DNA from: Parcubacteria group bacterium
Lineage (GTDB): Bacteria; Patescibacteriota; Minisyncoccia; Phycocordibacterales; UBA2135
Length of the DNA stretch: 64,000 nt
Assembly: GCA_016180525.1 (NCBI GenBank)
Contig: JACPBB010000001.1
Coordinates: forward strand, 251,840-315,839
Reading direction: 5' to 3'
Below are positions 39,796 to 60,174 of this stretch, one piece after another. The notes below the pieces were generated by a model. That model saw nothing but the letters and a program-made list of their open reading frames with translations, had not been told where the DNA came from and ran no database searches. The translations under genes and the position numbers were made by a program. Numbering within the stretch: position 1 is the first letter of the stretch; each line of letters opens with the position of its first letter.

Positions 39796-39804
39796 AAAAA
39801 ACTA

Positions 39805-40959: not shown

Positions 40960-41828
40960 AGTATCATTCCAAAATCTTTTTCCTTCCACGGTGTTATAAG
41001 AATATCAAGAACATATAATTTCACATACGCCCCGAAGGCAAAAAACATGAAAAAGAAATTCTTAAGCGTTTTTTGCCGTTTCCATTTTCCCCATAAGTGA
41101 AGTGAGCCAAGTTCATATAATAATGTCGGTGGACGACGAAACCACGCAGTCATGGGCGTAAATCCATTTTGTGTTAAAAATTGTTTCAAATTATCTTCAG
41201 AAAATTGAAATAAGTGGTGAGGCGGGGTCAGCACAGACCATGAAATATTAAACCGTTTGTAGAGTTTAAATGTTGTTTTAGCCCAAAAAGAATCGAGATT
41301 TGGTGTTGAAATAACAAGCACTCCAGTACTCTTTAGGACTCTGTGAGATTCAACAAGCAGTTCTTTGGGATTTTTCACGTGCTCAATAATGTCACCCAAG
41401 AAAACAGTGTCAAAAAAATTATCTGCATAGTGAGCATCTTTGAGTGTCCCCTGTTTTACATTGAGTTCGCGTGACCGCGCGATCTCCGCGGTCAATTCAT
41501 TTATTTCCACTCCATACGTCTCAAATCCTCTTTGTTTCGCGAAAAATAAAAAGTCGCCATTTGAGCAGCCGACATCGAGTAGTTTTCCATTTGAAACTGT
41601 CTTCTGTAAATAATTAAGTATTTTTTTAATATGCCGACTTTCTTTTACCGCAAGTTTTTTTCTATGCTTTTGATACCCGGCTTTTTTTGAATAAACCTCC
41701 TCTTGTAAATGCCGCTCATCGGGTTGCGGATTTACAAAAACAAGCCCGCATGCGGGACATTTTTGGTAGCCATACCTGTCTTTTTCAACGAAAAAGGCTG
41801 TTTTATTATTGCATATGAGACAGTTCAT
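40935..41828 (-). CDS. class I SAM-dependent methyltransferase with N-terminal Zn-ribbon
   Basis: CLICNN...CPACG zinc ribbon. LLDVGCSNGDF, VEINE, FDTVFLGDIIEHVKNP, LKSTGVLVIS motifs. Confidence 0.85.
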   Translation of the reverse strand: MNCLICNNKTAFFVEKDRYGYQKCPACGLVFVNPQPDERHLQEEVYSKKAGYQKHRKKLAVKESRHIKKILNYLQKTVSNGKLLDVGCSNGDFLFFAKQRGFETYGVEINELTAEIARSRELNVKQGTLKDAHYADNFFDTVFLGDIIEHVKNPKELLVESHRVLKSTGVLVISTPNLDSFWAKTTFKLYKRFNISWSVLTPPHHLFQFSEDNLKQFLTQNGFTPMTAWFRRPPTLLYELGSLHLWGKWKRQKTLKNFFFMFFAFGAYVKLYVLDILITPWKEKDFGMILCSKKIKN

Positions 41829-42847
41829 GAAAGAAGGCCTATTTTTTGTGCTTCGTTAATAATAGTAAGCACGCGCGCCTTTGTGGAGTGCCGTTTTAAA
41901 ATTTCTTGATATTCTTCTTCTAAATCTTTTTGATTATACCCATTTCGTAAAAACTCTCCCGCTTTTTTGAGTTGATATTCAAAATCATACAAATTATTGT
42001 ATTGAAAAATTCTTTTGTAATTCATCGCGTCGCTGTCAAGCTCAAACAAATCAAAGCGCTCCGCGATAATGAGACAGTTATTTCCTAAGATTTCCCAGAA
42101 GCGGCGCGAGTCATACCCTGCAGCGCCCGTTGAAACGCCGACTTTCGTGCGTGCCCAGATTTCATATGATTTATCGGGTGAATACGGACCCTTATGTATA
42201 AGCGGCAATTTGTATGTTTTCTTTGTGTGACACGTAAATCCATTCTCTGTGCAAAATTTTTGAGTTAACTCCGGAGCATAGCGCCGCGTTAGAGGGTAAA
42301 GCTCTTGCCCAAAAAAACAACTAAAATCAATGTCTTTCTCCTTGTTGGAGTCGTAATATTTCATAAACCGAGATTCAATGCCAAGCGGAAAAGGAATCAT
42401 GCCGTTTGTATATGGCTTTTCGCGCCTGAAATACAGCCGACATTTTTTTTGCATGTCTTTATTTGGGGCACCGAGCCCTTCGTATGCGCCTTTGATTATT
42501 TCGTACTGGATTTTTAGATCGCGCCATCTGTCTTTCCCAATTTCAGAACCGTCAACATAGACTGTCTTTCCCCACCCGTTTAGTTCGTCAATAAACGCTG
42601 TATCGGTGCCATATTTTCCGTACGAGAAAATAATCAGGTCAGCGCCCTTAGCAAACTCCGCCAGTTGTTTTTTGGAAACTCCAAACTGTTTTGTAAAAGC
42701 TTCTCCAAACGGGTGCGGATAATAATCGGGGTAAAAAAATTCAAGTTCTGGATTTTCTTTTTTTAATAAAAACAACCCGTCCAGGACAGTGTCGCAATAA
42801 AAATCATCTCTTTCTGTCGGCGTTACGACCGCAATTTTATACCGCAT
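41825..42847 (-). CDS. hypothetical protein, possible GT-B-like glycosyltransferase (CgeB/DUF-type)
   Basis: 340 aa with a two-domain alpha/beta-looking composition in a tightly overlapping GT operon. No confident motif. Confidence 0.3.
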   Translation of the reverse strand: MRYKIAVVTPTERDDFYCDTVLDGLFLLKKENPELEFFYPDYYPHPFGEAFTKQFGVSKKQLAEFAKGADLIIFSYGKYGTDTAFIDELNGWGKTVYVDGSEIGKDRWRDLKIQYEIIKGAYEGLGAPNKDMQKKCRLYFRREKPYTNGMIPFPLGIESRFMKYYDSNKEKDIDFSCFFGQELYPLTRRYAPELTQKFCTENGFTCHTKKTYKLPLIHKGPYSPDKSYEIWARTKVGVSTGAAGYDSRRFWEILGNNCLIIAERFDLFELDSDAMNYKRIFQYNNLYDFEYQLKKAGEFLRNGYNQKDLEEEYQEILKRHSTKARVLTIINEAQKIGLLS

Positions 42848-43895
42848 GTAATAATTGTGTTATGCGTTTAATAAGATTTTTTAAATCAAAATTTTGTTTT
42901 ACTTGATTATATAAATATTCCTGGATATTCAAAACCTCTTCTTCGCCCTTTATGCAGAGCGAATTTATTTTTTGAGCAAGATCGTTCGCGTCACGCTCCT
43001 TATAGAGCAAAGATTTGCCGTGTATACCAAAAACTTCAGAGAATGCTTTATTTGCCGAAAGCGCCATGGTCCCGCACGCGATACTCTCAAGCACCGCCTT
43101 ATCCATACCACCCGTTGGGGTCAAATTAACCGATATATCTGCTTCTTTATAATAGTCGAGCATGTCGGTATATGAAATTGCACCCTTAAAAAAAACTGAT
43201 TCTGATATGTTTTTTTCTTTAACTAGGGTTTTAAGTTTTTTAAAATACTCAACATCTGTTTTGTACACCGGAGCGCCGATGCACGTAATCATCGCATGAA
43301 TATTGTATTTCCTTTCTAGTGCGTGTGCTGCCTCAAACAAAATCTCTAAATTTTTAATAGGGGTAATTCTGCCGACATGAAGAATCCGAAGCGGCGTATG
43401 AAGTGGCTCATCTTTTTTACGCGTGAAGTGCGCAAAATCAATGCCGTGCCCCAAAAAGTTGACTTTTTTACTTTTAAGACGAAACGCCTCCGGGGTCGTG
43501 CTAAAAACAACGTGCGCTAACTTTTCTGCAATTCGCAATTTCATATTAACCTGTCGGTGCACGTACCACAGTCCAATTTTTTTATTCCACAGTCGCCACA
43601 AGAGTCCGCCGAGAATAATATATTCTGGATTCATATGAACAAAAACAGCATCGTAGCGATTTTTCAAATTCCAAATATATTTATAAAAATTAAAAATGTA
43701 TGAGATTCTTGATGTGCCCCGCTCTTTTCCTAAAGAAAAAATCCCTACGTTGTTGGGTAGAGTATGCACTCCTTTTTCAAGACAAATAACCGTCACGCCT
43801 TCACAGTATTGCGCAAACCGATGGATCCACGGATGAAAAAAGCCGAGGACATCATCTGCCGCATCAACTTTTTGAGTGAGTATTAGAATTCGCAT
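42837..43895 (-). CDS. GT4-like (group 1) glycosyltransferase
   Basis: MRILILTQKVDAADDVLGFFHPW N-terminal domain and C-terminal ...DKAVLESIACGTMALSA GT-B motif. Confidence 0.7.
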   Translation of the reverse strand: MRILILTQKVDAADDVLGFFHPWIHRFAQYCEGVTVICLEKGVHTLPNNVGIFSLGKERGTSRISYIFNFYKYIWNLKNRYDAVFVHMNPEYIILGGLLWRLWNKKIGLWYVHRQVNMKLRIAEKLAHVVFSTTPEAFRLKSKKVNFLGHGIDFAHFTRKKDEPLHTPLRILHVGRITPIKNLEILFEAAHALERKYNIHAMITCIGAPVYKTDVEYFKKLKTLVKEKNISESVFFKGAISYTDMLDYYKEADISVNLTPTGGMDKAVLESIACGTMALSANKAFSEVFGIHGKSLLYKERDANDLAQKINSLCIKGEEEVLNIQEYLYNQVKQNFDLKNLIKRITQLLHAV

Positions 43896-44839
43896 TATGA
43901 AACATCATCGTTCGCACTATTTAAAATCGTGTCTCCATACACCCCGCGCAATAAATCAAGGTCCTTGTTGCTTGAAACGAGCAAGTCAATATTTTTATTC
44001 TTCAGCGCGTCTAAAACCATATGCCCAAACGGGTCATCAATTTCTTTTTTATATATTTCGCTAAAAGCGGCAAAATCTTTTATGAAACAGTGTCCTCCCG
44101 CCCCGCGCCCGCTTTTGTGAACCGGCTCCATATGAAGTTCATACAAAGGAAGCGTTCGTTCCGCCTCGCCGCCTAGAGTTCCGCTTTTGTGGACCGGGTT
44201 CATATGAGATGTCCCGATTCTTGGGTCAGCAATCATTGCATCCCGAATTACCTCCCAGTCGCAGCCAATTTTGTTGGCTAAATCATAAAGCAAATTTATA
44301 TAAATTACTTTAAAATAAAACCAGTTGTTCCCGCCGTATTTAATAAGTTCAGCTTCTTTTGCTTTGCAGACTAAATCAAACTGTGCCTTTGGCAACACAG
44401 ACAAAACCTCTTTTGCTTTTTGTCTGTACTCATCACTCTCTTCTGAAATTCCAATAATATTGCGAAATGGTTGAGACGCGTCTTGCCTCGCGGTGGATTC
44501 GGTTAAAAATTCCGGAGAATGGAAAACAAAGATACCCGGATTCTCTTTTTGTATTGATTCGGTGGTTCCAGGGATAACGGTTGATTTAATAACCGCAATC
44601 TTTCCTTTTCCCACGAGCTTTACCACTTCACGTACGATGCTGTCGTCAAATTTTTGATTGCGAGTAGGAGTCGGAACGGCAATAAACACAATGTCGCAAT
44701 CTCGCACCTTCTCTCTATTTCCGGCATATTCCCTTTCCTGCGCGTAGCGAGTTACCCCATACCCCCTTCGTTCAAAATCATCGGCATAATTTTTGCCTAT
44801 CCAACCCTGTCCTATAAAGCCTATGTGTTGCTTCTGCAT
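43895..44839 (-). CDS. short UDP-glucose/GDP-mannose dehydrogenase-family protein carrying an internal duplication
   Basis: IGFIGQGWIGKNYA NAD-binding start, SPEFLTEST, and catalytic-Cys motif GGHCFIKD. Only 314 aa. Contains a 24-aa internal repeat HMNPVHKSGTLGG / HMEPVHKSGRGAGG. Confidence 0.55.
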   Translation of the reverse strand: MQKQHIGFIGQGWIGKNYADDFERRGYGVTRYAQEREYAGNREKVRDCDIVFIAVPTPTRNQKFDDSIVREVVKLVGKGKIAVIKSTVIPGTTESIQKENPGIFVFHSPEFLTESTARQDASQPFRNIIGISEESDEYRQKAKEVLSVLPKAQFDLVCKAKEAELIKYGGNNWFYFKVIYINLLYDLANKIGCDWEVIRDAMIADPRIGTSHMNPVHKSGTLGGEAERTLPLYELHMEPVHKSGRGAGGHCFIKDFAAFSEIYKKEIDDPFGHMVLDALKNKNIDLLVSSNKDLDLLRGVYGDTILNSANDDVS

Positions 44840-44914
44840 ATGAGTAGTAATTCTTCAGATTATATACTGTATATAAACAAAATACACGCTATTGAGTTGC
44901 ATAGTGGATGTATT

Positions 44915-45433
44915 TTAAAACGATGCCAGGAGTTGTGCAAATTCGTTTAAATTTGAAACTTCCGGAAACTCTGTTTGCTTGATATCGCTGCCGTATTTCA
45001 TTTCTTTCCGTCGCATACGAATCCCGACAATGTGTGGACATTGTTTTTTCATGTTTTGCAGTTGCGCAAAATCGTCATCAAGAAAAATTATTTTTTCTTC
45101 TGCGTGCTTAAATATGCGCTTGATTATATCCCCCTTCATTTCAGTACCGGTAAATATAGATTCTGAAAATAAGTTGAGGATTCCACTTTGTTGAACTTTA
45201 GCTTTTTGATATTTTTTATCGCCAAATGTCACCAAAATGAGACGGTGCTGTGAATGGTTTTTTAAAAAATCCACCGTGTCGGGAAACAAGAACATACCCG
45301 CTTTCCCGTGCTCTTTAAGAATTTTAAGACAGCGGTTGCTGTGTTCAACGCATGAGATATTCTCTAGCCCCATTTCTTTTTTATACTGCTCCGTATTAAA
45401 AAGTGTCCAATCAAAATCCAATAAAATGCGCAT
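44915..45433 (-). CDS. HAD-superfamily hydrolase
   Basis: Motif I DFDWTL (DxDxT) and motif IV FLDDD. Confidence 0.6.
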   Translation of the reverse strand: MRILLDFDWTLFNTEQYKKEMGLENISCVEHSNRCLKILKEHGKAGMFLFPDTVDFLKNHSQHRLILVTFGDKKYQKAKVQQSGILNLFSESIFTGTEMKGDIIKRIFKHAEEKIIFLDDDFAQLQNMKKQCPHIVGIRMRRKEMKYGSDIKQTEFPEVSNLNEFAQLLASF

Positions 45434-45440
45434 ATCAATT

Positions 45441-46448
45441 TTACATTATCTCAATAATAGCCCGCGCGAGCTTGTCCGGGTCATGCCTGATTAAACTCCT
45501 TCGGAGTGTGTCTCCTGATTTTTTCTTCACCTCTTCCGAAGCAAGGAAATCATTTCTAATAATAGCAGCGCTCCCCTCCTCTAAATCATCCGCGATGGGA
45601 AATTCTTTCTGCGCGTAGTATGCCTCAAGAATATCCTCCGGCAGATTATTATTATTTACAAGGACATAGTCTGGGTTTCGACCTGTATACTGTATCAGTT
45701 CAGTGAGGTGGTCATTTGCAGTAAAATTATGCGTTTGTCCGTACTTGCTCATAAGGTTCAAAACAAAAAGTAATTTTCCTTTTGAGCTCACGAGCGCTTC
45801 TTTTGTCCCTGGCACCACAACGCTCGCAAGAATGCTCGTATAAAGGTCCCCAGGACCCATAATGATAAGGTCTGCGCTTGCTATTGCCTCGCGTGCCCTT
45901 TCCGATATGCGCGCTTCCGGCTCTATCCAGAGGCGTTTAATTTTTTGCGTTCCGTCATGGCTCTCGGGCGGCTCATCAATGTAGGTCTCCCCTTTTACCG
46001 TATGGCCGCTTTCATACTCCGCGGCCAAAGTAATTTTTTCACTGGTAACCGGAAGCACTCTGCCACGCACGCGAAGCATTTGGGAGGCATATTCAATCGC
46101 GCGCTCTTCTGAGCCGAAAATATCGGTGAGAGCAACTAAAAATAAATTGCCGAAATTGTGTCCCTTGAGCCCCTCCCCTTTATCAAAACGGTGGAGAAAA
46201 AGCGAGCGTAGGGCATTTCCCACCTCGCTGTCGTCAGCAAGCGCGACAAGCGCCATGCGAAAATCGCCAACGGGCAAGTACCCGAATTCATCCCGCAGTC
46301 GCCCCGTAGAGCCTCCACTGTCAGCAACGGTTACAATCGCCGTTAAATCAAAAAGGTCTGGAGGGTATTTTTTTAATCCGGACAAAACAGTGTATGTCCC
46401 CGTCCCCCCTCCAATAACCACTATATTTTTTTGTCTTTTCGTAAACAT
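45441..46448 (-). CDS. YvcK/gluconeogenesis-factor family protein (UPF0052, CofD-like, UDP-sugar binding)
   Basis: IVVIGGGTGTYTVLSGLK...TAIVTVADSGGSTGRLRDEFGYLPVGD is typical of YvcK. Confidence 0.85.
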   Translation of the reverse strand: MFTKRQKNIVVIGGGTGTYTVLSGLKKYPPDLFDLTAIVTVADSGGSTGRLRDEFGYLPVGDFRMALVALADDSEVGNALRSLFLHRFDKGEGLKGHNFGNLFLVALTDIFGSEERAIEYASQMLRVRGRVLPVTSEKITLAAEYESGHTVKGETYIDEPPESHDGTQKIKRLWIEPEARISERAREAIASADLIIMGPGDLYTSILASVVVPGTKEALVSSKGKLLFVLNLMSKYGQTHNFTANDHLTELIQYTGRNPDYVLVNNNNLPEDILEAYYAQKEFPIADDLEEGSAAIIRNDFLASEEVKKKSGDTLRRSLIRHDPDKLARAIIEIM

Positions 46449-46500
46449 ATCTTGTATTCATCATAACTCTTTATGCTTACAAAAAGTACCTGACACAATT

Positions 46501-47337
46501 TTATATTTGCTTTCCTATTATCGATTCTAATTTTGAAGTGTAGCCTTGTTTTTCGATCGAAATAATTCCATCCGAATAAACTGGGTCGGAGCACTTAAGA
46601 GGAAGCCATATATAACTTTTAGTATCCAATCTATAGCATTTAAAATCTGAAGATTTTTCTAATGGAGGTAACGGTCTTTTAATATCATCAATCATTAAAG
46701 TGAAATCATTATAAAAATCTGGGAAGACGTAGATGGCTTGAGCATTAATATAGTCAACGACAGAGCAATATTTATTGCTACCGCCAACAGAGCATTGAGA
46801 ACTAAATTCGTTACTAGTAGCTAAATACATTAACAAAATTTCATCCCCTTCTCCTAGTTGTGTAAGGTTAAGTGTGCATTTACGGTTGACACAATTATTA
46901 AATTCTGCGCTTTTCAATATTTTTTCTTCGGCTTTTAATTCAATTGGGCCCTCTTGAATCAATCCATTCATAAATTCTAATTTGATGTTTTTTGCTTTTC
47001 TCGGGCTAGAGTTTGTTATGTATATAGAATATGCTGAGCAACTACCTTCACATAATATAAAATCAGGGTTGATTATCCCTTTTCCAGACTTATTTTTGTC
47101 CACATTTTGTATTGCCGTCAAAGTGCCATAACCATATTGAGTGGTGAATAGATAATTTACATCGTTGATCGTTGAATTCTCTACTAATTTTGTTTCGGTA
47201 ACAGATATTTCAATCGCAGGGTCTGCAAAAAATTTTCCTAGAAAATTTTTTGTCTTTGAGTTTATCGGATCTTCAAATACTGCATAGAGTGCTATTGTAA
47301 CGATAACCCCGATAATAAAATATAGCGCATTTCTCAT
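46501..47337 (-). CDS. hypothetical membrane-anchored/secreted Cys-rich protein
   Basis: N-terminal TM anchor (ALYFIIGVIVTIALYAV), then a Cys/Asn/Ser-rich domain. The gene is visibly AT-richer than its flanks. Confidence 0.5.
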   Translation of the reverse strand: MRNALYFIIGVIVTIALYAVFEDPINSKTKNFLGKFFADPAIEISVTETKLVENSTINDVNYLFTTQYGYGTLTAIQNVDKNKSGKGIINPDFILCEGSCSAYSIYITNSSPRKAKNIKLEFMNGLIQEGPIELKAEEKILKSAEFNNCVNRKCTLNLTQLGEGDEILLMYLATSNEFSSQCSVGGSNKYCSVVDYINAQAIYVFPDFYNDFTLMIDDIKRPLPPLEKSSDFKCYRLDTKSYIWLPLKCSDPVYSDGIISIEKQGYTSKLESIIGKQI

Positions 47338-47377
47338 ATTATTTTAAAAAATTGGTGCCAGGTACCTTTTTCATTTT

Positions 47378-48445
47378 CTATTTTCTGTGGTTTAACAGGC
47401 ATTGTTCAAAAGATTGTTTATACAAACGCAAATATTCTTCTTTATCTTTATAAGGATACTTGTATTCTAAAGGTTTGGGAAGTTCTTTTTTATAAAGCCG
47501 CAGGAGTATCTCTCCCAGTGACTGCGGGGTGTGTTCCGCGATATACGCCCCGACTTCATGGGCAACGCCTACATCAGTAGCAACAACTGGAATACCGGCA
47601 ACTCGCGCCTCAACCATCTGCAATCCATACCCTTCATACCACGAGGTTACAAGAAGCGCATCCGCGCCTTTATAATATCCCGCGACATCATTTTGCCAAC
47701 CGAGAAAAAGAACGTTATTTTGTAACTTGTAACGTGTAACTTGTAACTCAGGGTCGTTACGCTCCGAGCCGTCGCCGATGATGACAAGGCAAGAATTTGG
47801 AACATGCCTTTGGAATATATTAAACGCTTCTAGCGCAAGCATCGGATTTTTTTCTTTTTCAAGCCGCCCCACCCAGAGAATCGTGAAATCGTACCGTTTT
47901 GGTAAAGATGTTGGTTGCGCATTTTTAATTTTTTCTGCGTCTATCCAAATAGGCAGGACCGCGCAGCTTGTAGCTTGTAGCTTGTAGCTTGTAGCAAGAG
48001 AATTTTTTATTTTTTCACTAACCACGCGAATGCAATCCGCCCTCAAAAGAGTGCGCCGCAAAAACATTTTTCGGATGAAATTTTTTATGCTCGCCCTGGC
48101 AAAATACGGAGAGAAAACATCCGTATGAACTTGCAGTTGTAATTTTGCGTTTAAAGCTGACGCAAGGCGTGAGGCAATGAACCCTGTTTCAAACGGGTCT
48201 TGCGCTGTCACAATATCAATATCGCCCCGCACTCGTTTAACAATATTACCAATACCCCACAAAGAACTAAGCGGCTCATGAAAAACAAAAACGTTTGGAG
48301 AGATGCGTTCTTCTTTATATTTTCCAATCGAAATTACACAAATATAAAGATTTTCAAATAATTTCCCATATTCAACCATCCGCGCACGCACAGCGCTTCC
48401 TTTGTCAAAAATCTTCGCATCCCGTGAGAGCATTAAAACTTTCAT
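47378..48445 (-). CDS. GT4 (group 1) glycosyltransferase containing two heptanucleotide repeat tracts
   Basis: GRLEKEKNPMLALEAF...GDGSERNDPE...YEGYGLQMVEARVAGIPVVATDVG. Carries (TTGTAAC)x4 at about 47720-47747 and (CTTGTAG)x4 at about 47967-47994. Confidence 0.85.
   Translation of the reverse strand: MKVLMLSRDAKIFDKGSAVRARMVEYGKLFENLYICVISIGKYKEERISPNVFVFHEPLSSLWGIGNIVKRVRGDIDIVTAQDPFETGFIASRLASALNAKLQLQVHTDVFSPYFARASIKNFIRKMFLRRTLLRADCIRVVSEKIKNSLATSYKLQATSCAVLPIWIDAEKIKNAQPTSLPKRYDFTILWVGRLEKEKNPMLALEAFNIFQRHVPNSCLVIIGDGSERNDPELQVTRYKLQNNVLFLGWQNDVAGYYKGADALLVTSWYEGYGLQMVEARVAGIPVVATDVGVAHEVGAYIAEHTPQSLGEILLRLYKKELPKPLEYKYPYKDKEEYLRLYKQSFEQCLLNHRK
47720..47747. repeat. heptanucleotide tandem repeat TTGTAAC x4 (third unit GTGTAAC) inside a GT4 coding sequence
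   Basis: ttgtaacttgtaacgtgtaacttgtaac encodes LQVTRYKLQ. Confidence 0.9.
47967..47994. repeat. heptanucleotide tandem repeat CTTGTAG x4 inside the same GT4 coding sequence
   Basis: cttgtagcttgtagcttgtagcttgtag encodes ATSYKLQATS. Confidence 0.9.
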
Positions 48446-49494
48446 TATTTTAGTTTATTCTCAAATACATATTTCAGAAATGAATCAAATTTGAGATATT
48501 TCATGAACGTATCGCGAGCTAATGTTTGCTTCTTTTTAAATTCTTCGTCTGACATACCGTCCCAGAATTTCCTTATATATTTGTCCGTGTTTTTAATATC
48601 GGTATACGGCACAAACACAACAAATTTTTTATAATCTATTTCGCCTTCGCTGGGCAGCATCCATTCGGTATCAATTAAAACGGGAATTCTTCCTAATGCC
48701 AGTGTCTCATAAAACCGAACCGCCATATTCGCATCTCCGCGAACTATGAGTACAAAGTCAGAATTCCTGATGTTCCCAATATATTCTTTCCGTAATACCA
48801 TTGGGTCGCCTTGTACCGTATTTTTATTTGCTGAATAAAAGTTTCTTATCAAAAAAGAGGTTTTGATAAGCCGTGAATTTTGTAAGGCGGCAATTGCCCT
48901 TTTCCTCCAATAAATTCCTTGCTTGTGAACTTCGGCGTATCGGCTGCGAAAAATATATTTTTTCACATCAAGAGGAATTGTTTTTGAAAGATATTTTAAT
49001 CTCTGCCGCAGAGAATTGAGCTCAGCCCAGCCACAAAAACTCACTACAGGTATTTCTTTTTTATTACGAAGATAAAATAAATCATTTGCGAGGATATCGC
49101 TCGCGTAGATTTGTGTCGGGGTGATAATTTCATTTTCCGCTGCCCCCCGATATCTATATCCGGCATATCGGAAAAAAAGCGTATGCGGTAAATAAAATTG
49201 CTCGTCAGAATCAACGAGGGCAAACGCAAGAATCTTTTTATTGTGTCTCTGCGCAAGCTCAACAAAATGGCTGATATATGTCTTATTGTTTCTGAGCGTG
49301 GGATATGTATAGGGAATGAGGATAAAATCAGCACCTTCCGGTTTGCTTACAACTGTTATAAAACTGAAATCCATCTCATCAAAAATCGCCCTATACGGCT
49401 TCTTGCCTTCATACGGAGGAATTTTAAGCTCGCGGTTCAAGAACCGCAACGGCTTGCCGCCGGGAAATAGTTCACCAATATAGACCTTGGCCAT
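48445..49494 (-). CDS. GT47 (exostosin-like) family glycosyltransferase, paralog 2
   Basis: FVLIVRGDANMAVRFYETLALGRIPVLIDTEWMLPSEGEIDYKKFVVFVPY matches the exostosin motif. Collinear similarity to 21773-22939 throughout (ADFILIPY / ILAFALVDSDE / FFRYAGYRY...ENEIITP). Confidence 0.55.
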   Translation of the reverse strand: MAKVYIGELFPGGKPLRFLNRELKIPPYEGKKPYRAIFDEMDFSFITVVSKPEGADFILIPYTYPTLRNNKTYISHFVELAQRHNKKILAFALVDSDEQFYLPHTLFFRYAGYRYRGAAENEIITPTQIYASDILANDLFYLRNKKEIPVVSFCGWAELNSLRQRLKYLSKTIPLDVKKYIFRSRYAEVHKQGIYWRKRAIAALQNSRLIKTSFLIRNFYSANKNTVQGDPMVLRKEYIGNIRNSDFVLIVRGDANMAVRFYETLALGRIPVLIDTEWMLPSEGEIDYKKFVVFVPYTDIKNTDKYIRKFWDGMSDEEFKKKQTLARDTFMKYLKFDSFLKYVFENKLK

Positions 49495-49538
49495 ATAAAG
49501 AATTTCTAATTCACCTAATAAAATGTTTAACGCAAAAA

Positions 49539-51071
49539 TTAGAGCAATGTAACCAGTGATTCTATCGCTTTTTCTTTTGAAAACGATTTTGCCTTTTCTA
49601 TCCCGTTTTTTATCAGGTCGTTTCGCATGGCCCCATTCTTAAGAAGAGTTTTGACAGCGTTTTTGATTTCACTCTTGTCATTATATGAAACAAGCAGGCC
49701 CTCTTTTTGGTTCTCTATAAGCTCCGAGTTTCCTCCGATATTAGTCGTAATAATAGGGGTTCCGAGCGCCATTACTTCAAGCAATTGATGAGAAAACCCC
49801 TCATAGCCGGTATTGAGCACAAAGATATCGGCGGCTCGTATATATTCCGTAAGCATGCCAGATGACAATCTGCCGACTAAAAAAACTACATCTTGTAACT
49901 TGTAACTTGTAACTTGTAACTTGAGTGTTTCCCGCTCCGGTCCGTCTCCGGCTATATATAATTTAATATCGGGAATTTCTTTTTTTAGTTCAGCGATAAC
50001 GTCAATGAGCGCGGAAAATCCTTTCCACGGCACAAGCCGCCCCGCAGAAAAAATTACTGTTCCGTGCATTCCCAATTTTTCCCTTACGTTTTCTTTGGGC
50101 GCTAACGAAGCCGAAAACTCAAACGAATTATAAATGACTTTGATTTTCAGGCCTTCAATTCCCCACTGTTGTACGATTTTTTTGAGATATTCACTCGGCA
50201 CAACAATATGGCCTGCGTTTCGCGCGACAAGATGCTCAATTTTTCTCCGAGCTTCCGTCACGAAATCAAATTTTCTTTCTTGAAACTCCTCTGGCGTAAT
50301 AAATTTTCCATCGGTGTTTTTCATTTTTCGCTTTTCATTTTGCACTTGATACTGTTCCCACGCGTAGTCTCCCGCGATGCGTAACAAAAATTTTTTTCTA
50401 AGCAGTTTGGACACAATAAGCGCGGGAAATCCAACGCTTACCGGGTCAAGTGCGTATATAATTTCAGCTTCTGTGGCCCTAAAGCAAATAATTAAAAAAT
50501 AAACGAGGTGTCGAATAATTTTAGGCAGCTTGCGAACACTGCTAAAAGATACAATCGTAATGTGAATATTGCGACTTGGAAGCTCTGTTTCAAGAAGTTT
50601 TGCGTACGTAGCCGGGCCACCGATATCAGGAGGATAGAGCGGAGTGGCTAGGAGGACTCTCCCTTTCTGAGTGTGATTAAAAATAATATTTCCATATATA
50701 AAAAATGTTACGACCGCGATGGCGCCTGAAGAAAATACCTGCGCAAGCATGTACCAGAGGCCTGCAACAGAAACAAGTACGTACATAAAAAGGGCGTTCG
50801 CGGCAAGCCCCGTGAGCGCGGTTATAAGATATAGGGCGACTTGCCGTGAAATATCGTGCGTATGAGTATTTTTAAATGTCCATAATTTCTGCAACAGAAA
50901 GCTCGCAAAAAACGCGAAAACAAACGCAATCGTTGAGGAGAGAAGATACCACAGACCAACGATGTCAGTAAGCACATATAAAAAACTAAGCGATACAAAG
51001 GCCGCTATTCCTCCCGCAATTAGATATCGCGCGATTTTATTTTGAATAAATTTTAAAAACATAATTTTCAT
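49539..51071 (-). CDS. GtrA-like membrane domain fused to a GT4 glycosyltransferase; contains a heptanucleotide repeat tract
   Basis: N-terminal 4-TM GtrA-like segment (IARYLIAGGIAAFVSLSFLYVL...) followed by a GT4 domain (...GDGPERETL...GFSHQLLEVMALGTPIITTNIGG). (CTTGTAA)x4 at about 49892-49919 encodes KLQVTSYKLQ. Confidence 0.75.
   Translation of the reverse strand: MKIMFLKFIQNKIARYLIAGGIAAFVSLSFLYVLTDIVGLWYLLSSTIAFVFAFFASFLLQKLWTFKNTHTHDISRQVALYLITALTGLAANALFMYVLVSVAGLWYMLAQVFSSGAIAVVTFFIYGNIIFNHTQKGRVLLATPLYPPDIGGPATYAKLLETELPSRNIHITIVSFSSVRKLPKIIRHLVYFLIICFRATEAEIIYALDPVSVGFPALIVSKLLRKKFLLRIAGDYAWEQYQVQNEKRKMKNTDGKFITPEEFQERKFDFVTEARRKIEHLVARNAGHIVVPSEYLKKIVQQWGIEGLKIKVIYNSFEFSASLAPKENVREKLGMHGTVIFSAGRLVPWKGFSALIDVIAELKKEIPDIKLYIAGDGPERETLKLQVTSYKLQDVVFLVGRLSSGMLTEYIRAADIFVLNTGYEGFSHQLLEVMALGTPIITTNIGGNSELIENQKEGLLVSYNDKSEIKNAVKTLLKNGAMRNDLIKNGIEKAKSFSKEKAIESLVTLL
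49892..49919. repeat. heptanucleotide tandem repeat CTTGTAA x4 inside a GT4 coding sequence
   Basis: cttgtaacttgtaacttgtaacttgtaa. Same unit as in gene 47378-48445. Confidence 0.9.
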
Positions 51072-52258
51072 GATGCTGTTTCAAAAATATGTTTCATTGT
51101 GTTAGCAATTTTATTCCAATCGTGTTTTTCTGTAGCAACTTCACGAGCATTTTTAACAATAGTACTTATCGCTTCTTTGTGCTTCGGATTGATAATAAAA
51201 TCTACTTGATCTGCAACGCTTTTGGGGTCTTTTACTCCGCATATAAACCCGGTTTCTCTGTCTTTTAGAAAGTCTACTATGCCGCCAACGGCTGTTCCGA
51301 TAACCGGAATTCCCGCGGCCATCGCCTCAATAAAAGAATTGCCCATACCCTCCGAAAGAGAGGGACGAACAAAAATATCCGAAGATTTAAGATATGGTGG
51401 AACTTTTTTCCCGTCAATAAATCCCAAAAAATGAACTCTGCGCGAAACACCCACATCTTCCGCGAGTTTTTTGAGCATCCGCTCATCAGGCCCAACCCCG
51501 AGTACAATAAAATGAACGGTTTCTGGTAAATATCTAAGCGCCTTTATAACATCATCAACGGCGTTCTTCTTCACCAGCCGTGATGTCGTAATTAAAGCCT
51601 TATCTTTTTCCTGTATTTTTAAACTTTTTCGTAGCTCCTCTGTTTTATGTTTTTCGATTTGCGTTTTGAATTTTTCTACATCTACCCCATTCGGCACAAC
51701 GGAGCTCTTCCCTTTAAACCCCATTTTCCTTCCCCATTTTTCAAGAAACGAAGATTCGCCGACGAGATGGTCGGCAAGCGCAAATCCCCTTACAAACAAA
51801 GGCCATGCAGGCAACATTGTGCGTTCTATGTATTCGGGAGGATCTCCCTCTTGAAGCGTTAGAACATAAAAAACGTCTCTATAAAATGTTTTAAAAAGAC
51901 CGGCAGGAATTCCTGCAGAGTGTGCCATCATAGCCCACATGCCGTCAAAGTGGTGTGTGCGATGAAGCGCGGCCCCTTTTAAAAAAGCGAGAATCTGAAA
52001 AATATATTTGTTGAGGTGCAAAGGAAATAGGCGGAAATCGGCAGAGTTTGGACTCATTTTTGCAAAACCGATGCGATGCACAAAAACATTTCCAACCTTT
52101 TCTGATTTTGGCAGTGCCTTGTCAAACCGCGCAGTCACCATGTGAAACTCAAATTCATCAGGAGAAATTCTGTCCGTGATTTCTTTTATGGCGACTTCCG
52201 CACCCCCCACAAACGGATAATACGCAAGAGAAAATATAAGAACTTTCTTTGGTGTCAT
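51068..52258 (-). CDS. GT4 (group 1) glycosyltransferase
   Basis: VLIFSLAYYPFVGGAEVAI N-terminus and C-terminal EGMGNSFIEAMAAGIPVIGTAVGG. Confidence 0.85.
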   Translation of the reverse strand: MTPKKVLIFSLAYYPFVGGAEVAIKEITDRISPDEFEFHMVTARFDKALPKSEKVGNVFVHRIGFAKMSPNSADFRLFPLHLNKYIFQILAFLKGAALHRTHHFDGMWAMMAHSAGIPAGLFKTFYRDVFYVLTLQEGDPPEYIERTMLPAWPLFVRGFALADHLVGESSFLEKWGRKMGFKGKSSVVPNGVDVEKFKTQIEKHKTEELRKSLKIQEKDKALITTSRLVKKNAVDDVIKALRYLPETVHFIVLGVGPDERMLKKLAEDVGVSRRVHFLGFIDGKKVPPYLKSSDIFVRPSLSEGMGNSFIEAMAAGIPVIGTAVGGIVDFLKDRETGFICGVKDPKSVADQVDFIINPKHKEAISTIVKNAREVATEKHDWNKIANTMKHIFETAS

Positions 52259-52357
52259 TGATTAATGATAACACGACTGTATTCTATAACGTTTTCTGTT
52301 GCTGCTCATTGTTATCAATACTATTTTTAAAGAATGACCCACTTTGAGTAAGTAATT

Positions 52358-53317
52358 TTAACGAATCCACTGTAACTTTTTTATAAAAATAGAGCGGCTA
52401 TTTGCGCTGATGGATCGTTCTATGGCCTCAAGGACCCTTACTGTTGCAATCCCGTTTTTTATATCCGTTTTTGGTTTTTTGTTTGTTTTTATCATTGTGA
52501 GAAACGCTTTGAGTTCAGCTGTAAGCGGAAGGATTTTATTGTATGACGGGTGCGTAATGATTTCTTTTCCTTGTTTTGTGACATTATTTCTTTTTTTTAG
52601 CCCAACGTTTTTGTATACAGTTATTTTTTTCTTCGCCATTTCATCAAAAACAATCGTGCTTTTTTCTCCAACAATCGTCATTCGTTTTCTTTTTTCAGGA
52701 AACATCCAAGAGTTAAACATAAACGCTATTGTGCCGTTTTTAAAATATAGTTTGGCATATGTCGTATCATACAACGTACTTTTTGAACGCATATGCGACA
52801 CCTCCCAACCTAGAACGCGTATCGGGCTTTCCAGAAGTAAATCCAAAAGCATGTAAACATCGTGCGAGCCCCAATCCCACAAAACTGATACATCCTCGCG
52901 AACGGGTCCGCTGCTACAACCCTCGCTAAAAATATATCTTATTTTACCAATATGTTTTGCAAGCTGTTTTGTTTTAAGGTATGCCGGGTTGTAGAGATGT
53001 AGATGCCCTACAAATACACGCGCGCCGCTTTTACGCGCGGCGCGCGCAAGCACTAGTGCCTCCGCAACGTTTGTCACCATCGGTTTTTCAATAAAAACCG
53101 AAAGACCTTTTTTAATAAACGGGAGCGCGACTTTTGCGTGAGTAGCGGCAGGAGTTGCCACAATAACCGCATCAATGTCTTCCTTGTTTAAAAGAGTACT
53201 ATAATCGTATTCTGCTATATATGAAACAGTAACACTCTCTAATATTTTGAGGGTGCCAATGATCTTTTTTCCCCAGCGTCCCGCTCCAATAACCGCGACC
53301 CTTGTTCGTTTTATCAT
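52358..53317 (-). CDS. Gfo/Idh/MocA-family NAD(P)-dependent oxidoreductase (sugar-nucleotide dehydrogenase-like)
   Basis: RVAVIGAGRWGKK Rossmann N-terminus, ...DAVIVATPAATH..., EKPM motif. Confidence 0.85.
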   Translation of the reverse strand: MIKRTRVAVIGAGRWGKKIIGTLKILESVTVSYIAEYDYSTLLNKEDIDAVIVATPAATHAKVALPFIKKGLSVFIEKPMVTNVAEALVLARAARKSGARVFVGHLHLYNPAYLKTKQLAKHIGKIRYIFSEGCSSGPVREDVSVLWDWGSHDVYMLLDLLLESPIRVLGWEVSHMRSKSTLYDTTYAKLYFKNGTIAFMFNSWMFPEKRKRMTIVGEKSTIVFDEMAKKKITVYKNVGLKKRNNVTKQGKEIITHPSYNKILPLTAELKAFLTMIKTNKKPKTDIKNGIATVRVLEAIERSISANSRSIFIKKLQWIR

Positions 53318-53361
53318 TGAGGATTATTATCCCAATTCTTGCCTCTTATACAAAGCGTGTG

Positions 53362-54441
53362 TTAATTACCCTGAGTATAACTTGGATCATTTTTGCACCA
53401 CTCTATAAACTGCTCAAGTCCTTCCTTAAGAGAAACGTGTGGGGTAAAGCCAAGGTCATTCCGCGCTTTAGAAACATCCGGGCAGCGTCTCTGGGGTTCC
53501 CCCGCGGGGTAAGTTTCCGGATATGCTATAAGGTCATAAGAAATTTTGTTATCAAAAAGAGAAGTGAACAGCTCGGCGAGGTCTTTCATGCTTATTTCAT
53601 TTTCATCATTACCAATATTATATGGATGTCCCGGTTTGCCCTTAAGAAGTACGAGCAAAAATCCGGTAATCGCGTCCGTAATATAACAAAAAGTGCGCGT
53701 CTGATGTCCGTCTCCGTGTACCGGTAGGGGCTCGTTATTAAGGGCTCGGAACGCGAACATCGGAAGCACTCGGTGATCGTTATGAGACATGCCTGGGCCA
53801 AAGACGTTAAATGGCCGAACGATTGTTGTGGGAATACCGTATTGCTGCTCATAAATTGTGGCAATGGTCTCGCCGAGACGCTTTGATTCATCGTAGCAGG
53901 CCCGCGGACCAACTGACGAAACATACCCATGATATGTCTCCTGTGTCGGAACAGCTTTCGGGTCCGGGTCTCCGTATATTTCACTTGAACTGAAAAAAAG
54001 AAATCCCTCAAGGTGGTCTTTATTTTTTCGCGCAAGCTCAAGCAGATTCTTTACTCCGAAAACAGTGCCTTCAATCGTTTCAAGCGGATATTTTTTGTAA
54101 TACACGGGAGAAGCAAGGCCGGCCCCGTTTATTATAAAGTGAACATCCTCCCTCACCGGAAGCGGGTAGGTGACATCTGCCCATACCTCAAGAACGTCAG
54201 GTCGACCCTGATAATTAAAATGCGGATGGCGAGCCCCCGTAATATAGTTATCAACAGAAATAACGCGACACGGTTTAGAAAAAACGTTGTCATTCAAATA
54301 GGCAAGTGTGCCAACGATGTACTTTCCGAGAAAACCGCCACCGCCACTCATGAGAATTGTTTTCCCTTCAAACTTTTTTGCTTCTTCTCCAAGATTTTTC
54401 GCAATAGTCGCTATATCTTTTTTTACGATTTCTTGAGACAT
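53362..54441 (-). CDS. UDP-glucuronate decarboxylase / UXS-like extended SDR (ArnA-dehydrogenase-like)
   Basis: ILMSGGGGFLG; ETIEGTVFGVKNLLELARK, SSEIYGDP, GPRACYDESKRLGE and RPFNVFGPGM closely parallel UXS motifs (KTIKTNVIGT..., STSEVYGDP, GPRACYDEGKRVAE, RIFNTYGPRM). Start placed at ATG (MSQEIV); the track start is a GTG. Confidence 0.8.
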   Translation of the reverse strand: MSQEIVKKDIATIAKNLGEEAKKFEGKTILMSGGGGFLGKYIVGTLAYLNDNVFSKPCRVISVDNYITGARHPHFNYQGRPDVLEVWADVTYPLPVREDVHFIINGAGLASPVYYKKYPLETIEGTVFGVKNLLELARKNKDHLEGFLFFSSSEIYGDPDPKAVPTQETYHGYVSSVGPRACYDESKRLGETIATIYEQQYGIPTTIVRPFNVFGPGMSHNDHRVLPMFAFRALNNEPLPVHGDGHQTRTFCYITDAITGFLLVLLKGKPGHPYNIGNDENEISMKDLAELFTSLFDNKISYDLIAYPETYPAGEPQRRCPDVSKARNDLGFTPHVSLKEGLEQFIEWCKNDPSYTQGN

Positions 54442-54518
54442 ATGTTTAGAAAAAATTAAATGGAATAATATACAATACTGTAACTGGAAAATGCCCACAA
54501 AAGCAACTTTGCCGCGCG

Positions 54519-55706
54519 CTAAGAAACCTCTCGTGGTGGTATGGGTATTAGGTAGGTGTATTTTCCATTACGTGTTTTTTCCTTGATATCAGTAAAATAT
54601 TCATACGCAAACACGACAAGCACATCTATCTTATGCGTGTCTAAATGCGTTCTGGGAAAAATCGGTATATGAGTGCCAGGGCTAAACTTGTTCTGCTTTA
54701 ACGGACTGTCATCAATAATGAATTCAATAAGCTCGGGGCCAATATTACCGAAATTACAAATAGTGGCAACCCGCGCAGGAGAACCATATCCGGCAACTCT
54801 ACGGCCGGCATTTTTGTATTCTACGAGCTTATCTTTAAATGCGCCAATATATGCGTCAACTTTTTGACCAAACTCTTTCAGCGATTCCACGTGCAAATTT
54901 TCTTCTTCCTCTCTCAAAAAATTTTTTACACGCTCGCTTACGGGGGCAGCGTGTTTTGTATTCTGCGCATAAATCCTGATAGACCCTCCGTGTGGCTGAA
55001 TGTTTTCAACATCAGTAACAATCATGCCATGAGAAGCAAATAAATCTCTTAGTGAAGTAAGTGAGTAATAAAATATCCTATCAAGATAGAATCGTTCAAA
55101 TTGAACATCCCGTATGATATTTCCGATATATTCAACCTCAACAATAAAAACCCCTTGTGGCGCCATCACTTTTTTCACGTCGTCAATAAACTGATGCGGG
55201 TCATCCAGGTGGGTAAATATACTGCTTGCAACAATGACATCAGGAGCTCCGTATTTTTCCTTAACTTCACGTGCGGATTTTTCATTAAAAAAGGATGTTA
55301 CCGTAGTAAGCCCCTCATCGTTTGCGATTTTTGAAACATTAATAGACGGGTCAATGCCGACGGCCTTAACTCCTAATTTTTTAAGGGGGCGGAGCAATAT
55401 GCCGTCATTTGAGCCAACATCAAGAACAAACTGCGCCGATGTCAATTTACCCGCTAATTCTTCAAAATGTCTCACAAGGCCTGGGTTTACGGAAGAAAGA
55501 TAATAATAATCTTCAAACATTCTTTCACGAGATACAAATGTTCCAAGCTGAACATTTTTACACCCACCTTCACAGAAAAAAACCGAGAGTGGAAAAAAAT
55601 CTTCGCCCGAAAACTGATTCCTGGTCGGGTATTTGTTCGCAAGCGGCTGCTTGCCAAGATTGAGAAATTCTATTGAATTGTTTTTAAAACATAAACTACA
55701 TTTCAT
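54519..55706 (-). CDS. NDP-hexose C-methyltransferase-like (TylCIII-type), paralog 2
   Basis: Zn-ribbon CSLCF...CEGGCKN, methyltransferase core LDVGSNDGIL and a C-terminal C-methyltransferase domain. Paralog of 31712-32968. Start placed at the internal ATG (MKCSLCF); the track start is a TTG. Confidence 0.7.
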   Translation of the reverse strand: MKCSLCFKNNSIEFLNLGKQPLANKYPTRNQFSGEDFFPLSVFFCEGGCKNVQLGTFVSRERMFEDYYYLSSVNPGLVRHFEELAGKLTSAQFVLDVGSNDGILLRPLKKLGVKAVGIDPSINVSKIANDEGLTTVTSFFNEKSAREVKEKYGAPDVIVASSIFTHLDDPHQFIDDVKKVMAPQGVFIVEVEYIGNIIRDVQFERFYLDRIFYYSLTSLRDLFASHGMIVTDVENIQPHGGSIRIYAQNTKHAAPVSERVKNFLREEEENLHVESLKEFGQKVDAYIGAFKDKLVEYKNAGRRVAGYGSPARVATICNFGNIGPELIEFIIDDSPLKQNKFSPGTHIPIFPRTHLDTHKIDVLVVFAYEYFTDIKEKTRNGKYTYLIPIPPREVS

Positions 55707-55757
55707 ATAAATACAACAATACCATTCAAGCAGATGTCCGCCAAGACACCCACGCAA

Positions 55758-60169: not shown

Positions 60170-60174
60170 AAATA

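What the first reader, a model, noticed from the sequence alone, without database searches (positions are those of the whole stretch)
48445..49494. GT47 (exostosin-like) glycosyltransferase, paralog 2
Second copy with the same motif (FVLIVRGDANMAVRFYETLALGRIPVLIDTE...DYKKFVV) and collinear similarity to 21773-22939 along its whole length. Duplication of a rare family within one locus suggests functional diversification, for example different sugar donors or acceptors.
Basis: partly seen in the sequence, partly recalled or inferred. Interest (0 to 1): 0.5.

Follow-up and report, generated by a model that had tools for sequence, protein, structure and literature searches.

The report
Second exostosin-like glycosyltransferase gene, Parcubacteria
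This is an intact gene for an exostosin-type (GT47-like) sugar-adding enzyme, one of two old, diverged copies inside a very large surface-sugar gene cluster of a tiny groundwater bacterium (Parcubacteria); it is already labelled this way in public databases, so it is a sound but fairly ordinary finding.

Summary
Window 48445..49494 (minus strand) is one intact 349-aa ORF carrying the quoted motif. It is 40% identical (E 2e-83) to the ORF at 21773..22939.

The interpretation also holds:
- Pfam PF03016 (Exostosin_GT47) scores above its cut-off.
- The UDP-binding Arg and Glu of EXT1 (R346, E349) are invariant here (R260, E263).
- dN/dS against the nearest orthologue is 0.11.

- The family is not rare. 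A profile search found 1,264 clusters at E<=1e-30, and at least 566 loci in GTDB species genomes, mostly Patescibacteria.
- The duplication is old. Both copies, each with its own neighbours, recur on another Parcubacteria contig.
- dN/dS between the two copies cannot be computed because synonymous sites are saturated.

The exact protein is already in NCBI as "exostosin family protein [Parcubacteria group bacterium]".

Most likely function: a soluble, cytoplasmic, inverting UDP-sugar transferase. It would work with membrane-anchored GT4 enzymes on a lipid-linked surface glycan. Donor and acceptor are unknown. The copies differ consistently in the donor-sugar loop, which fits different donors but does not prove it.

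The parts
48445..49494 (-). GT47/exostosin-like glycosyltransferase, paralog 2 (349 aa, no TM segment)
48664..48756 (-). Nucleotide-sugar-binding motif, residues 247-277. It contains G253, N256, R260, E263, R269, P271 and T276 (all invariant in the 46-sequence alignment) and the clade-specific loop D254-V259.
   Evidence: Invariant columns. R260 aligns to EXT1 R346, E263 to E349 and G253 to G339. Roles of the EXT1 residues are from PMC9675754 and PMC9178029.
49210..49212 (-). Codon of Asp95, the invariant Asp in the loop after an N-domain strand; candidate catalytic base (inferred)
   Evidence: Invariant in 46/46 sequences. It lies three residues after strand 88-92 of the model. By hhalign it aligns to EXT1 D202, not D162/D164.
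21773..22939 (-). GT47/exostosin-like glycosyltransferase, paralog 1 (public model starts at 22924, 383 aa)
   Evidence: PF03016 E 4.1e-15 covering profile positions 41-286. 40% identical to paralog 2. Identical to P0037.
49539..51071 (-). Upstream gene: four-helix GtrA/DPMS membrane domain fused to a GT4 glycosyltransferase
   Evidence: PF04138 plus PF00534. 4 TM segments. Conserved next to GT47 orthologues in L001, L005-L007 and L015.
51068..52258 (-). GT4 glycosyltransferase, first gene of the conserved GT4 / GtrA-GT4 / GT47 / GT4 block
   Evidence: PF00534 E 7e-38. Synteny.
47378..48445 (-). Downstream GT4 glycosyltransferase; its ATG overlaps the GT47 stop codon (TAATG)
   Evidence: PF00534 E 2e-27. 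The junction sequence reads aaaTAATGaaa. Synteny.
40935..46448 (-). Rest of the cassette that recurs in other genomes: YvcK-like protein, a 172-aa unknown, a truncated NDP-sugar dehydrogenase-like protein, a GT4, an unannotated GT-B protein of 340 aa, and a methyltransferase
   Evidence: The same order occurs in L001, L002, L005, L006 and L015.

Best explanation
The gene encodes an active, soluble, cytoplasmic GT-B glycosyltransferase of the exostosin (GT47) type.

Proposed mechanism, by analogy with EXT1 and the related viral enzyme A075L:
- It binds a UDP-sugar in its C-terminal subdomain.
- Y238 is the likely uracil stacker.
- R260, and probably R197, hold the diphosphate leaving group.
- E263 on helix C-alpha-4 binds the ribose.
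- It transfers the sugar with inversion and without a metal.
- An Asp in the N-terminal subdomain, most likely the invariant D95, acts as the base.

Proposed role: it is co-transcribed and translationally coupled with GT4 enzymes, one of which carries a GtrA/DPMS polyprenyl-phosphate-type membrane domain. It therefore most likely adds one beta-linked residue to a polyprenyl-phosphate-linked oligosaccharide at the inner face of the membrane. This would be part of a surface-glycan pathway that is conserved across Parcubacteria.

Relation to paralog 1: that copy does the analogous step in a second module (GT2 / GT47 / TagF-like). The two copies arose by an old duplication and probably differ in donor sugar.

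Shown here: family, fold, conserved donor-site residues, purifying selection, synteny, and GtrA fusions in relatives.
Inferred: inversion, UDP donor, the base residue, a lipid-linked acceptor, and different donors for the two copies.
For: Family and fold:
- PF03016 is above cut-off for both copies.
- The profile of 46 homologues hits EXT1 at E 1.9e-10.
- The AF2 model has pLDDT 93.2 and pTM 0.91.
- Foldseek's top 16 hits are all EXT1, EXT2 or EXTL3.

Active site:
- R260, E263, G253, N256, R197, R217 and D95 are invariant in 46/46 sequences.
- R260 aligns to EXT1 R346 and E263 to EXT1 E349. Both bind UDP, and R346A abolishes activity (PMC9675754).
- The C-alpha-4 acidic residue is a GT47 hallmark (PMC9178029).
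- Position 238 is always Tyr or Phe and aligns to the uracil-stacking Y324.

Selection: dN/dS is 0.108 against the 86%-identical orthologue.

Location: no TM segment.

Operon: a 1-nt TAATG overlap with the downstream GT4 and a 44-nt gap upstream.

Context:
- The GT4 / GtrA-GT4 / GT47 / GT4 block is conserved in L001, L005-L007 and L015.
- 60 of the 80 best GTDB loci have GT4-type neighbours.
- Relatives P0022-P0033 and L008 fuse the GtrA membrane domain directly to the GT47 domain. In L008 the fusion sits in the same slot of the cassette.

Old pair: both copies, with their own neighbours, lie on one 34.6-kb Hainich contig. They form sister clades in an NJ tree.

Donor loop:
- The paralog-2 clade has RGD[AS]NMA.RF and DTEW.
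- The paralog-1 clade has [KR]G[NH][GA]NAS.RF and DTDC.
- Other relatives have GDGN[YF]S.
- This loop corresponds to EXT1 G339-F345, proposed to recognise the sugar.
Against: - No biochemical data exist for any bacterial member of this subfamily; none was found in the literature searched.
- Pfam aligns only residues 225-308 of paralog 2, and identity to EXT1 is 17%.
- The candidate bases of EXT1 (D162, D164) align to T66 and R68 here and are not conserved. The base assignment to D95 is therefore a guess from a low-confidence part of an hhalign alignment.
- No initiating phosphoglycosyltransferase and no Wzx- or Wzy-type protein was recognised in the window by Pfam. A lipid-linked acceptor is thus not demonstrated.
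- A PF03016 match does not guarantee CAZy GT47 membership. A075L had such a match and became family GT114 (PMC11571054).
Confidence: 0.6

Rival explanations
1. It is an active GT47-type enzyme, but the acceptor is not a lipid-linked oligosaccharide. One option is polyprenyl phosphate itself, giving a polyprenyl-P-sugar donor for the GT-C (PMT_2-like) enzymes. Another is an alditol- or glycerol-phosphate unit of a teichoic-acid-like polymer, as RXYLT1 does on ribitol phosphate.
For: - GtrA/DPMS domains are typical of polyprenyl-phosphate glycosyltransferases, and they are fused to GT47 domains in relatives.
- PMT_2-like GT-C genes follow the GT47 gene directly in 5 of the 80 related loci and lie within 6 kb in 12.
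- Both copies give a weak RXYLT1_C match (20.1 bits, below the cut-off of 27).
- Paralog 1 sits next to a TagF-like glycerophosphotransferase, in the window and in L003 and L004.
Against: - The window protein has no membrane domain.
- Where PMT_2-like genes occur, small GT2 (DPM1/GtrB-like) genes that would normally make the polyprenyl-P-sugar are also present.
- The RXYLT1 match is below threshold.
- Paralog 2, the subject here, is flanked by GT4s rather than TagF-like genes.
Confidence: 0.2
2. It is a catalytically dead GT47 domain that only scaffolds or chaperones the neighbouring GT4 enzymes, like the GT47 domains of EXT2 and EXTL3.
For: - There is precedent in the family: the GT47 domains of EXT2 and EXTL3 are inactive (PMC9675754; PMC9178029).
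- EXT1 D162 and D164 are not conserved at the aligned positions.
Against: - The residues lost in EXT2 (the equivalent of R346) or masked in EXTL3 (Glu453) are invariant here, as R260 and E263, across 46 diverse sequences. So are D95, R197 and N256.
- dN/dS is 0.11.
- Clade-specific conservation of the donor loop is hard to explain for a dead site.
Confidence: 0.07
3. It is a cytoplasmic protein glycosyltransferase, modifying for example pilins or surface-layer proteins directly, rather than a step in an oligosaccharide assembly line.
For: - An LTD/PKD surface protein is encoded near the cassette here and in L008, L047, L055 and L077.
Against: - The POGLUT matches are much weaker than the EXT matches.
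- The gene is embedded among sugar-nucleotide-modifying enzymes and 8-10 other glycosyltransferases. That pattern is typical of stepwise glycan assembly.
Confidence: 0.06
4. It has a GT-B fold but transfers a non-sugar group such as pyruvyl or phosphoglycerol, like CsaB/WcaK or TagF-type enzymes.
For: - GT-B-like folds are used by such enzymes.
- The locus encodes TagF-like enzymes and enzymes that may activate an acid.
Against: - No Pfam match to PS_pyruv_trans or Glyphos_transf, even at E<=1.
- The best structural and sequence matches are bona fide GT47 domains.
Confidence: 0.04

Closest known systems
GT47 (GlcA-transferase) domain of human EXT1 (PDB 7ZAY, 7SCH)
   Same: - Best PDB sequence match to the family profile: E 1.9e-10.
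- Shared ...RG....RF.E.L..G.[IV]PV... motif, with R346 matching R260, E349 matching E263, G339 matching G253, and Y324 matching Y238.
   Different: - 17% identity.
- No N-terminal membrane anchor, no GT64 domain and no heterodimer partner.
- EXT1 D162 and D164 are not conserved.
- A 40-residue helical insertion lies between the first C-domain strand and R197.
- Cytoplasmic bacterial protein rather than a Golgi-lumen enzyme.
- Donor unknown.
Plant GT47 enzymes (IRX10 xylan xylosyltransferase, MUR3 xyloglucan galactosyltransferase)
   Same: - Same Pfam family.
- The conserved C-alpha-4 Glu (IRX10 E293) corresponds to E263 (PMC9178029).
- Single-domain GT47 architecture of about 350-400 residues in the catalytic part.
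   Different: The plant enzymes are type II Golgi membrane proteins acting on cell-wall polysaccharides. No direct comparison was run here, so the relation rests on the Pfam model and the cited paper.
Chlorovirus PBCV-1 A075L beta-xylosyltransferase (GT114; PDB 8ASA)
   Same: - Soluble, cytoplasmic, single-domain GT-B enzyme once annotated PF03016.
- Inverting and metal-independent.
- One Asp base (D73) plus two Arg (R158, R208), as described in PMC11571054. This is the same residue logic as D95, R197 and R260 here.
   Different: - A075L is 280 aa and was placed in a separate CAZy family.
NCBI 'exostosin family protein' of Parcubacteria / Patescibacteria (automatic annotation)
   Same: - The window protein is 100% identical to such an entry.
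- 113 close homologues all carry PF03016.
   Different: Nothing differs: this is the same protein. None of these entries has an experimentally tested function.

Membership tests
GT47 / Exostosin (Pfam PF03016) | Significant match to the family HMM above the curated gathering score | tested here: met
   Paralog 2 scores 61.6 bits against a cut-off of 33.4, E 9.8e-17, but only over residues 225-308. Paralog 1 scores 56.3 bits over profile positions 41-286. All 113 homologues carry a precomputed PF03016 hit.
GT47 / Exostosin (Pfam PF03016) | GT-B fold whose nearest solved structures are GT47 domains | tested here: met
   [not shown]
GT47 / Exostosin (Pfam PF03016) | Conserved Asp/Glu on helix C-alpha-4 that binds the nucleotide sugar (EXT1 E349, EXTL3 E453, IRX10 E293) | tested here: met
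   E263 is invariant in 46/46 sequences and aligns to EXT1 E349. The feature is defined in PMC9178029.
GT47 / Exostosin (Pfam PF03016) | Arg that holds the UDP diphosphate (EXT1 R346; lost in inactive EXT2) | tested here: met
   R260 is invariant and aligns to R346. Its role is described in PMC9675754.
GT47 / Exostosin (Pfam PF03016) | Second diphosphate-binding Arg (EXT1 R280) | tested here: inconclusive
   R197 and R217 are invariant. By secondary-structure order, R197 sits in the helix after the first C-domain strand. The hhalign alignment is unreliable in this stretch.
GT47 / Exostosin (Pfam PF03016) | Catalytic base in the N-terminal subdomain (EXT1 D162/D164 proposed) | tested here: inconclusive
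   EXT1 D162 and D164 align to T66 and R68, which are not conserved. The invariant D95 aligns to EXT1 D202. The base of EXT1 itself is only proposed.
GT47 / Exostosin (Pfam PF03016) | Inverting transfer from a UDP-sugar, metal-independent | not testable with these tools
   Needs an enzyme assay and product NMR.
GT47 / Exostosin (CAZy family assignment) | Assignment by CAZy/dbCAN family models | not tested
   No dbCAN or CAZy library is available here. The A075L precedent shows that a PF03016 match can end in another CAZy family.
GT114 (A075L-like) | Close sequence or structure similarity to A075L | tested here: not met
   [not shown]
GT4 (Glycos_transf_1) | Match to PF00534 / PF13692 | tested here: not met
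   [not shown]
Polysaccharide pyruvyl transferase (PF04230) / TagF-like (PF04464) | Match to the family HMM | tested here: not met
   Only PF03016 and a sub-threshold PF24785 hit were reported at E<=1.

The most novel reading that the evidence does not exclude
The Parcubacteria GT47-like proteins may be the inverting, beta-linking step of a phylum-wide cassette (GT4 / GtrA-GT4 / GT4 / GT4 / GT47) that builds an as yet undescribed signature surface glycan of these episymbiotic bacteria. The two diverged copies would install different sugars. One candidate is a uronic acid, as in EXT1, given the NDP-sugar 6-dehydrogenase in the locus. This would be the first functionally defined bacterial exostosin lineage and a tractable soluble model for GT47 catalysis.
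Probability: 0.2. Interest if true: 0.5.

Novelty: new member of a known kind. Interest (0 to 1): 0.25.

Why it matters
All biochemically understood GT47 enzymes are eukaryotic Golgi membrane proteins, such as those for heparan sulfate and for plant xylan, xyloglucan and pectin. They are hard to produce.

A small, soluble bacterial relative with an intact donor site could serve as a model for the family's still unsettled catalytic base and donor selectivity.

For candidate-phyla-radiation biology, the gene marks a conserved glycan cassette. That cassette takes up a large share of a very small genome and probably shapes the cell surface used to attach to hosts.

As a genome-scan finding it mainly confirms an existing automatic annotation.

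Tried and rejected
- NCBIfam gave no family for either copy.
- A single-sequence PDB search gave only EXT1 at E 0.42. The profile search was needed.
- dN/dS between the two paralogs, and against 61%- and 56%-identical orthologues, is not computable because pS exceeds 0.75. Only the 86%-identical orthologue gave a usable value.
- hhalign to EXT1 is reliable only in the C-terminal subdomain. The N-terminal mapping of the base is therefore left open.
- Recent tandem duplication or an assembly artefact is rejected. The copies are 40% identical and 26 kb apart, and each has a conserved, different neighbourhood in another genome.
- Literature searches for bacterial or CPR exostosins found nothing relevant.
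- Promoter and terminator scans around the gene were at chance level, and no hit falls in either junction flanking the gene.
- No tRNA and no Rfam hit in the window.
- The window's own genome is not among the GTDB representatives; the best match is 62% identical. The 344-kb NCBI contig could not be fetched, so the number of copies in the whole genome is unknown.
Full report
OBSERVATION

Window 48445..49494 is exactly one ORF on the minus strand, with an ATG start and 349 aa. The quoted motif is present: FVLIVRGDANMAVRFYETLALGRIPVLIDTE is residues 247-277 and DYKKFVV is residues 287-293. BLASTP against the ORF at 21773..22939 gives 40% identity and 62% positives over 332 columns, E 2e-83, collinear from residue 40 to 341. 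The public gene model for that other copy starts at the ATG at 22924, giving 383 aa.

WHAT IT IS

Sequence evidence:
- Pfam PF03016 (Exostosin_GT47) is the only family above its cut-off for both copies. Paralog 2 scores 61.6 bits and paralog 1 scores 56.3 bits, against a cut-off of 33.4.
- For paralog 2 the aligned stretch is only residues 225-308. For paralog 1 it spans most of the profile.
- NCBIfam has no model for either copy.
- The exact protein is already public as [quoted passage not shown] on a 344,533-bp contig. Paralog 1 is on the same contig.

Structure evidence:
- A 46-sequence alignment (A1) gave an AlphaFold2 model with mean pLDDT 93.2 and pTM 0.91. It has two Rossmann-like halves.
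- Foldseek's top 16 PDB hits are all EXT1, EXT2 or EXTL3.
- The A1 profile hits EXT1 in the PDB at E 1.9e-10.

ACTIVE SITE

Published work on EXT1 shows the following (PMC9675754):
- UDP is held by R280, R346 and E349, with Y324 stacking on uracil.
- R346A and D162N/D164N abolish GlcA transfer.
- Loop G339-F345 probably reads the sugar.

The acidic residue on helix C-alpha-4 is conserved across GT47, for example IRX10 E293 (PMC9178029).

In this protein:
- R260 aligns to R346, E263 to E349, G253 to G339 and Y238 to Y324.
- R260, E263, G253, N256, R197, R217 and D95 are invariant in 46/46 sequences. Position 238 is always Tyr or Phe.
- The N-terminal mapping is weaker. hhalign puts EXT1 D162 and D164 opposite the non-conserved T66 and R68, and puts the invariant D95 opposite EXT1 D202.
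- D95 lies just after an N-domain strand. In the related A075L the base, Asp73, lies in the N-terminal (acceptor-binding) region and works with two Arg (PMC11571054). D95 as the base is an inference, not a result.

IS IT FUNCTIONAL?

Against its closest orthologue (86% aa identity, L085), Nei-Gojobori dN/dS is 0.108. The residues that are lost or masked in the inactive GT47 domains of EXT2 and EXTL3 are invariant here. A dead scaffold is therefore unlikely.

CONTEXT

- The window is an almost unbroken array of about 50 minus-strand genes at GC near 0.40.
- Most of it is glycan biosynthesis:
  - Transferases: eight or nine GT4s, two GT2s, two TagF-like enzymes and a PMT_2-like GT-C.
  - Transport: an ABC exporter.
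  - Sugar modification: NDP-sugar dehydrogenases, epimerases/dehydratases, a DegT aminotransferase, two sugar C-methyltransferases, a carbamoyltransferase and an AsnB-like amidotransferase.
- The GT47 protein has no hydrophobic segment.
- Its stop codon overlaps the start of the downstream GT4 (TAATG). Only 44 nt separate it from the upstream gene. That upstream gene is a four-helix GtrA/DPMS membrane domain fused to a GT4.
- Promoter and terminator scans are at chance level, and no hit falls in either junction flanking the gene.

COMPARATIVE EVIDENCE

- On a 34.6-kb Parcubacteria contig from Hainich groundwater, both copies recur, each with its own neighbours. The paralog-2 orthologue (61% identity) sits between GtrA-GT4 and GT4, followed by YvcK. 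The paralog-1 orthologue (about 54-56% identity by BLAST or global alignment) sits between GT2 and a TagF-like gene, followed by AsnB.
- In an NJ tree the two clades are sisters. The duplication therefore predates the split of these lineages and is not a recent local event.
- A scan of GTDB species genomes found at least 566 loci encoding relatives. The best 80 are almost all Patescibacteria (Paceibacterota and related names), with a few from Kiritimatiellales, Anaerolineae and others.
- In those 80 loci, 60 have GT4-type neighbours, 40 a homologue of GT4_42837, 36 of GT4_47378 and 33 of GtrA-GT4.
- A recurrent order is GT4 / GtrA-GT4 / GT4 / GT4 / GT47.
- Relatives P0022-P0033 (about 510 aa) fuse the GtrA domain directly to the GT47 domain. 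In L008 such a fusion (510 aa, 4 TM) occupies the slot that GtrA-GT4 plus GT47 occupy here.
- This ties the enzyme to the membrane face and to polyprenyl-phosphate-linked chemistry. It does not prove the acceptor.

RARITY

A profile search of 1.84 billion representative proteins found 6,990 at E<=0.001, 3,023 at E<=1e-10 and 1,264 at E<=1e-30. The subfamily is small next to GT2 or GT4 but is not rare, and it is typical of Patescibacteria.

DIVERSIFICATION

The loop equivalent to EXT1 G339-F345 carries clade-specific, conserved residues:
- Paralog-2 orthologues: RGD[AS]NMA.RF, followed later by DTEW.
- Paralog-1 orthologues: [KR]G[NH][GA]NAS.RF and DTDC.
- Remaining relatives: GDGN[YF]S.

Paralog 1 also has two N-domain insertions. 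This fits different donors, and perhaps different acceptors, but it is indirect evidence. dN/dS between the paralogs cannot be computed because pS is 0.76.

MECHANISM

Committed view:
- An active, soluble, inverting, metal-independent UDP-sugar glycosyltransferase: about 0.9 for "active GT47-type transferase".
- It adds one residue to a lipid-linked glycan intermediate at the cytoplasmic membrane face, together with the adjacent GT4s: about 0.6 for the full statement.

Rivals:
- A different acceptor, either polyprenyl phosphate itself or a polyol-phosphate unit as for RXYLT1. Both copies give a sub-threshold RXYLT1_C hit.
- A pseudo-enzyme.
- A protein glycosyltransferase.
- A non-sugar transferase.

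Missing pieces: no initiating phosphoglycosyltransferase and no Wzx- or Wzy-type protein was recognised in the window.

COMPARISON AND NOVELTY

It works like the GT47 domain of EXT1 and meets the testable membership criteria: HMM score, fold, C-alpha-4 Glu and diphosphate Arg. The base and the second Arg are inconclusive. Stereochemistry and CAZy assignment could not be tested.

It differs from all characterised GT47s in being bacterial, cytoplasmic, unanchored and single-domain. No paper in the searchable library deals with exostosins in CPR bacteria. Because the protein already carries this annotation in NCBI, it is a new, uncharacterised member of a known kind, of modest interest.

Noticed in passing
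[not shown]
   Followed up: yes
window 49539..51071 (-); L008 3454-4986; P0022-P0033: The GtrA/DPMS four-helix membrane domain is fused to a GT4 here. In relatives it is fused to the GT47 domain instead, in the same slot of the cassette. It looks like an interchangeable membrane anchor or polyprenyl-phosphate module.
   Followed up: partly
window 43895..46448 (-): A YvcK-type UDP-GlcNAc-binding protein (TIGR01826, 299.5 bits against a cut-off of 196) sits inside the glycan cassette. With it are a 172-aa unknown and an NDP-sugar dehydrogenase-like protein that lacks the C-terminal UDP-binding domain. The trio is conserved in L001, L005 and L006; L015 lacks a detected homologue of the 172-aa unknown and instead has an NTP-transferase homologue between the YvcK-like and dehydrogenase-like genes.
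   Followed up: partly
window 14260..21661 (-); L003 16160-18250: This run of genes encodes a KduI-like protein, an enolase-superfamily (MR_MLE) protein, a DUF4147+MOFRL (glycerate-kinase-like) protein, a MobA-like nucleotidyltransferase, an AsnB-like amidotransferase and a TagF-like transferase. In L003 the nucleotidyltransferase and the DUF4147+MOFRL protein are fused into one 696-aa protein. This may make a nucleotide-activated acid or phospho-acid donor for a teichoic-acid-like polymer.
   Followed up: no
window 55758..63456 (-): The right end of the window encodes a surface protein with lamin-tail and PKD domains, a NYN-domain protein, a VirD4/TraG-like coupling ATPase and a DUF4015 glycoside-hydrolase-like protein. 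Homologues of the TraG-like and LTD/PKD genes also precede the glycan cassette in L047 and L077.
   Followed up: no
window 22917..23627 (-) and 46501..47337 (-): Two genes are present here but absent at the same positions in the syntenic Hainich contig (L001/L003). One is an FkbM methyltransferase between GT2 and GT47 paralog 1. The other is a 278-aa protein with an N-terminal hydrophobic segment and no Pfam hit, between the GT4 and YvcK. Both look like lineage-specific insertions.
   Followed up: partly
window 26087..27907 (-): A 606-aa protein with about 8 predicted TM segments and no Pfam hit. It is conserved (59-60% identity) in L003 and L004, upstream of the paralog-1 module. It may be a polymerase, ligase or GT-C-like membrane enzyme.
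   Followed up: no
window 1..64000: Roughly 50 kb of consecutive, same-strand glycan-biosynthesis genes, with no tRNA and no Rfam match in 64 kb. Only two plus-strand ORFs of 150 aa or more are not nested inside a longer minus-strand ORF: 7606..8463 and 33465..34190. This is a large investment if the source genome is small, as Parcubacteria genomes usually are; its largest public contig is 344 kb.
   Followed up: partly
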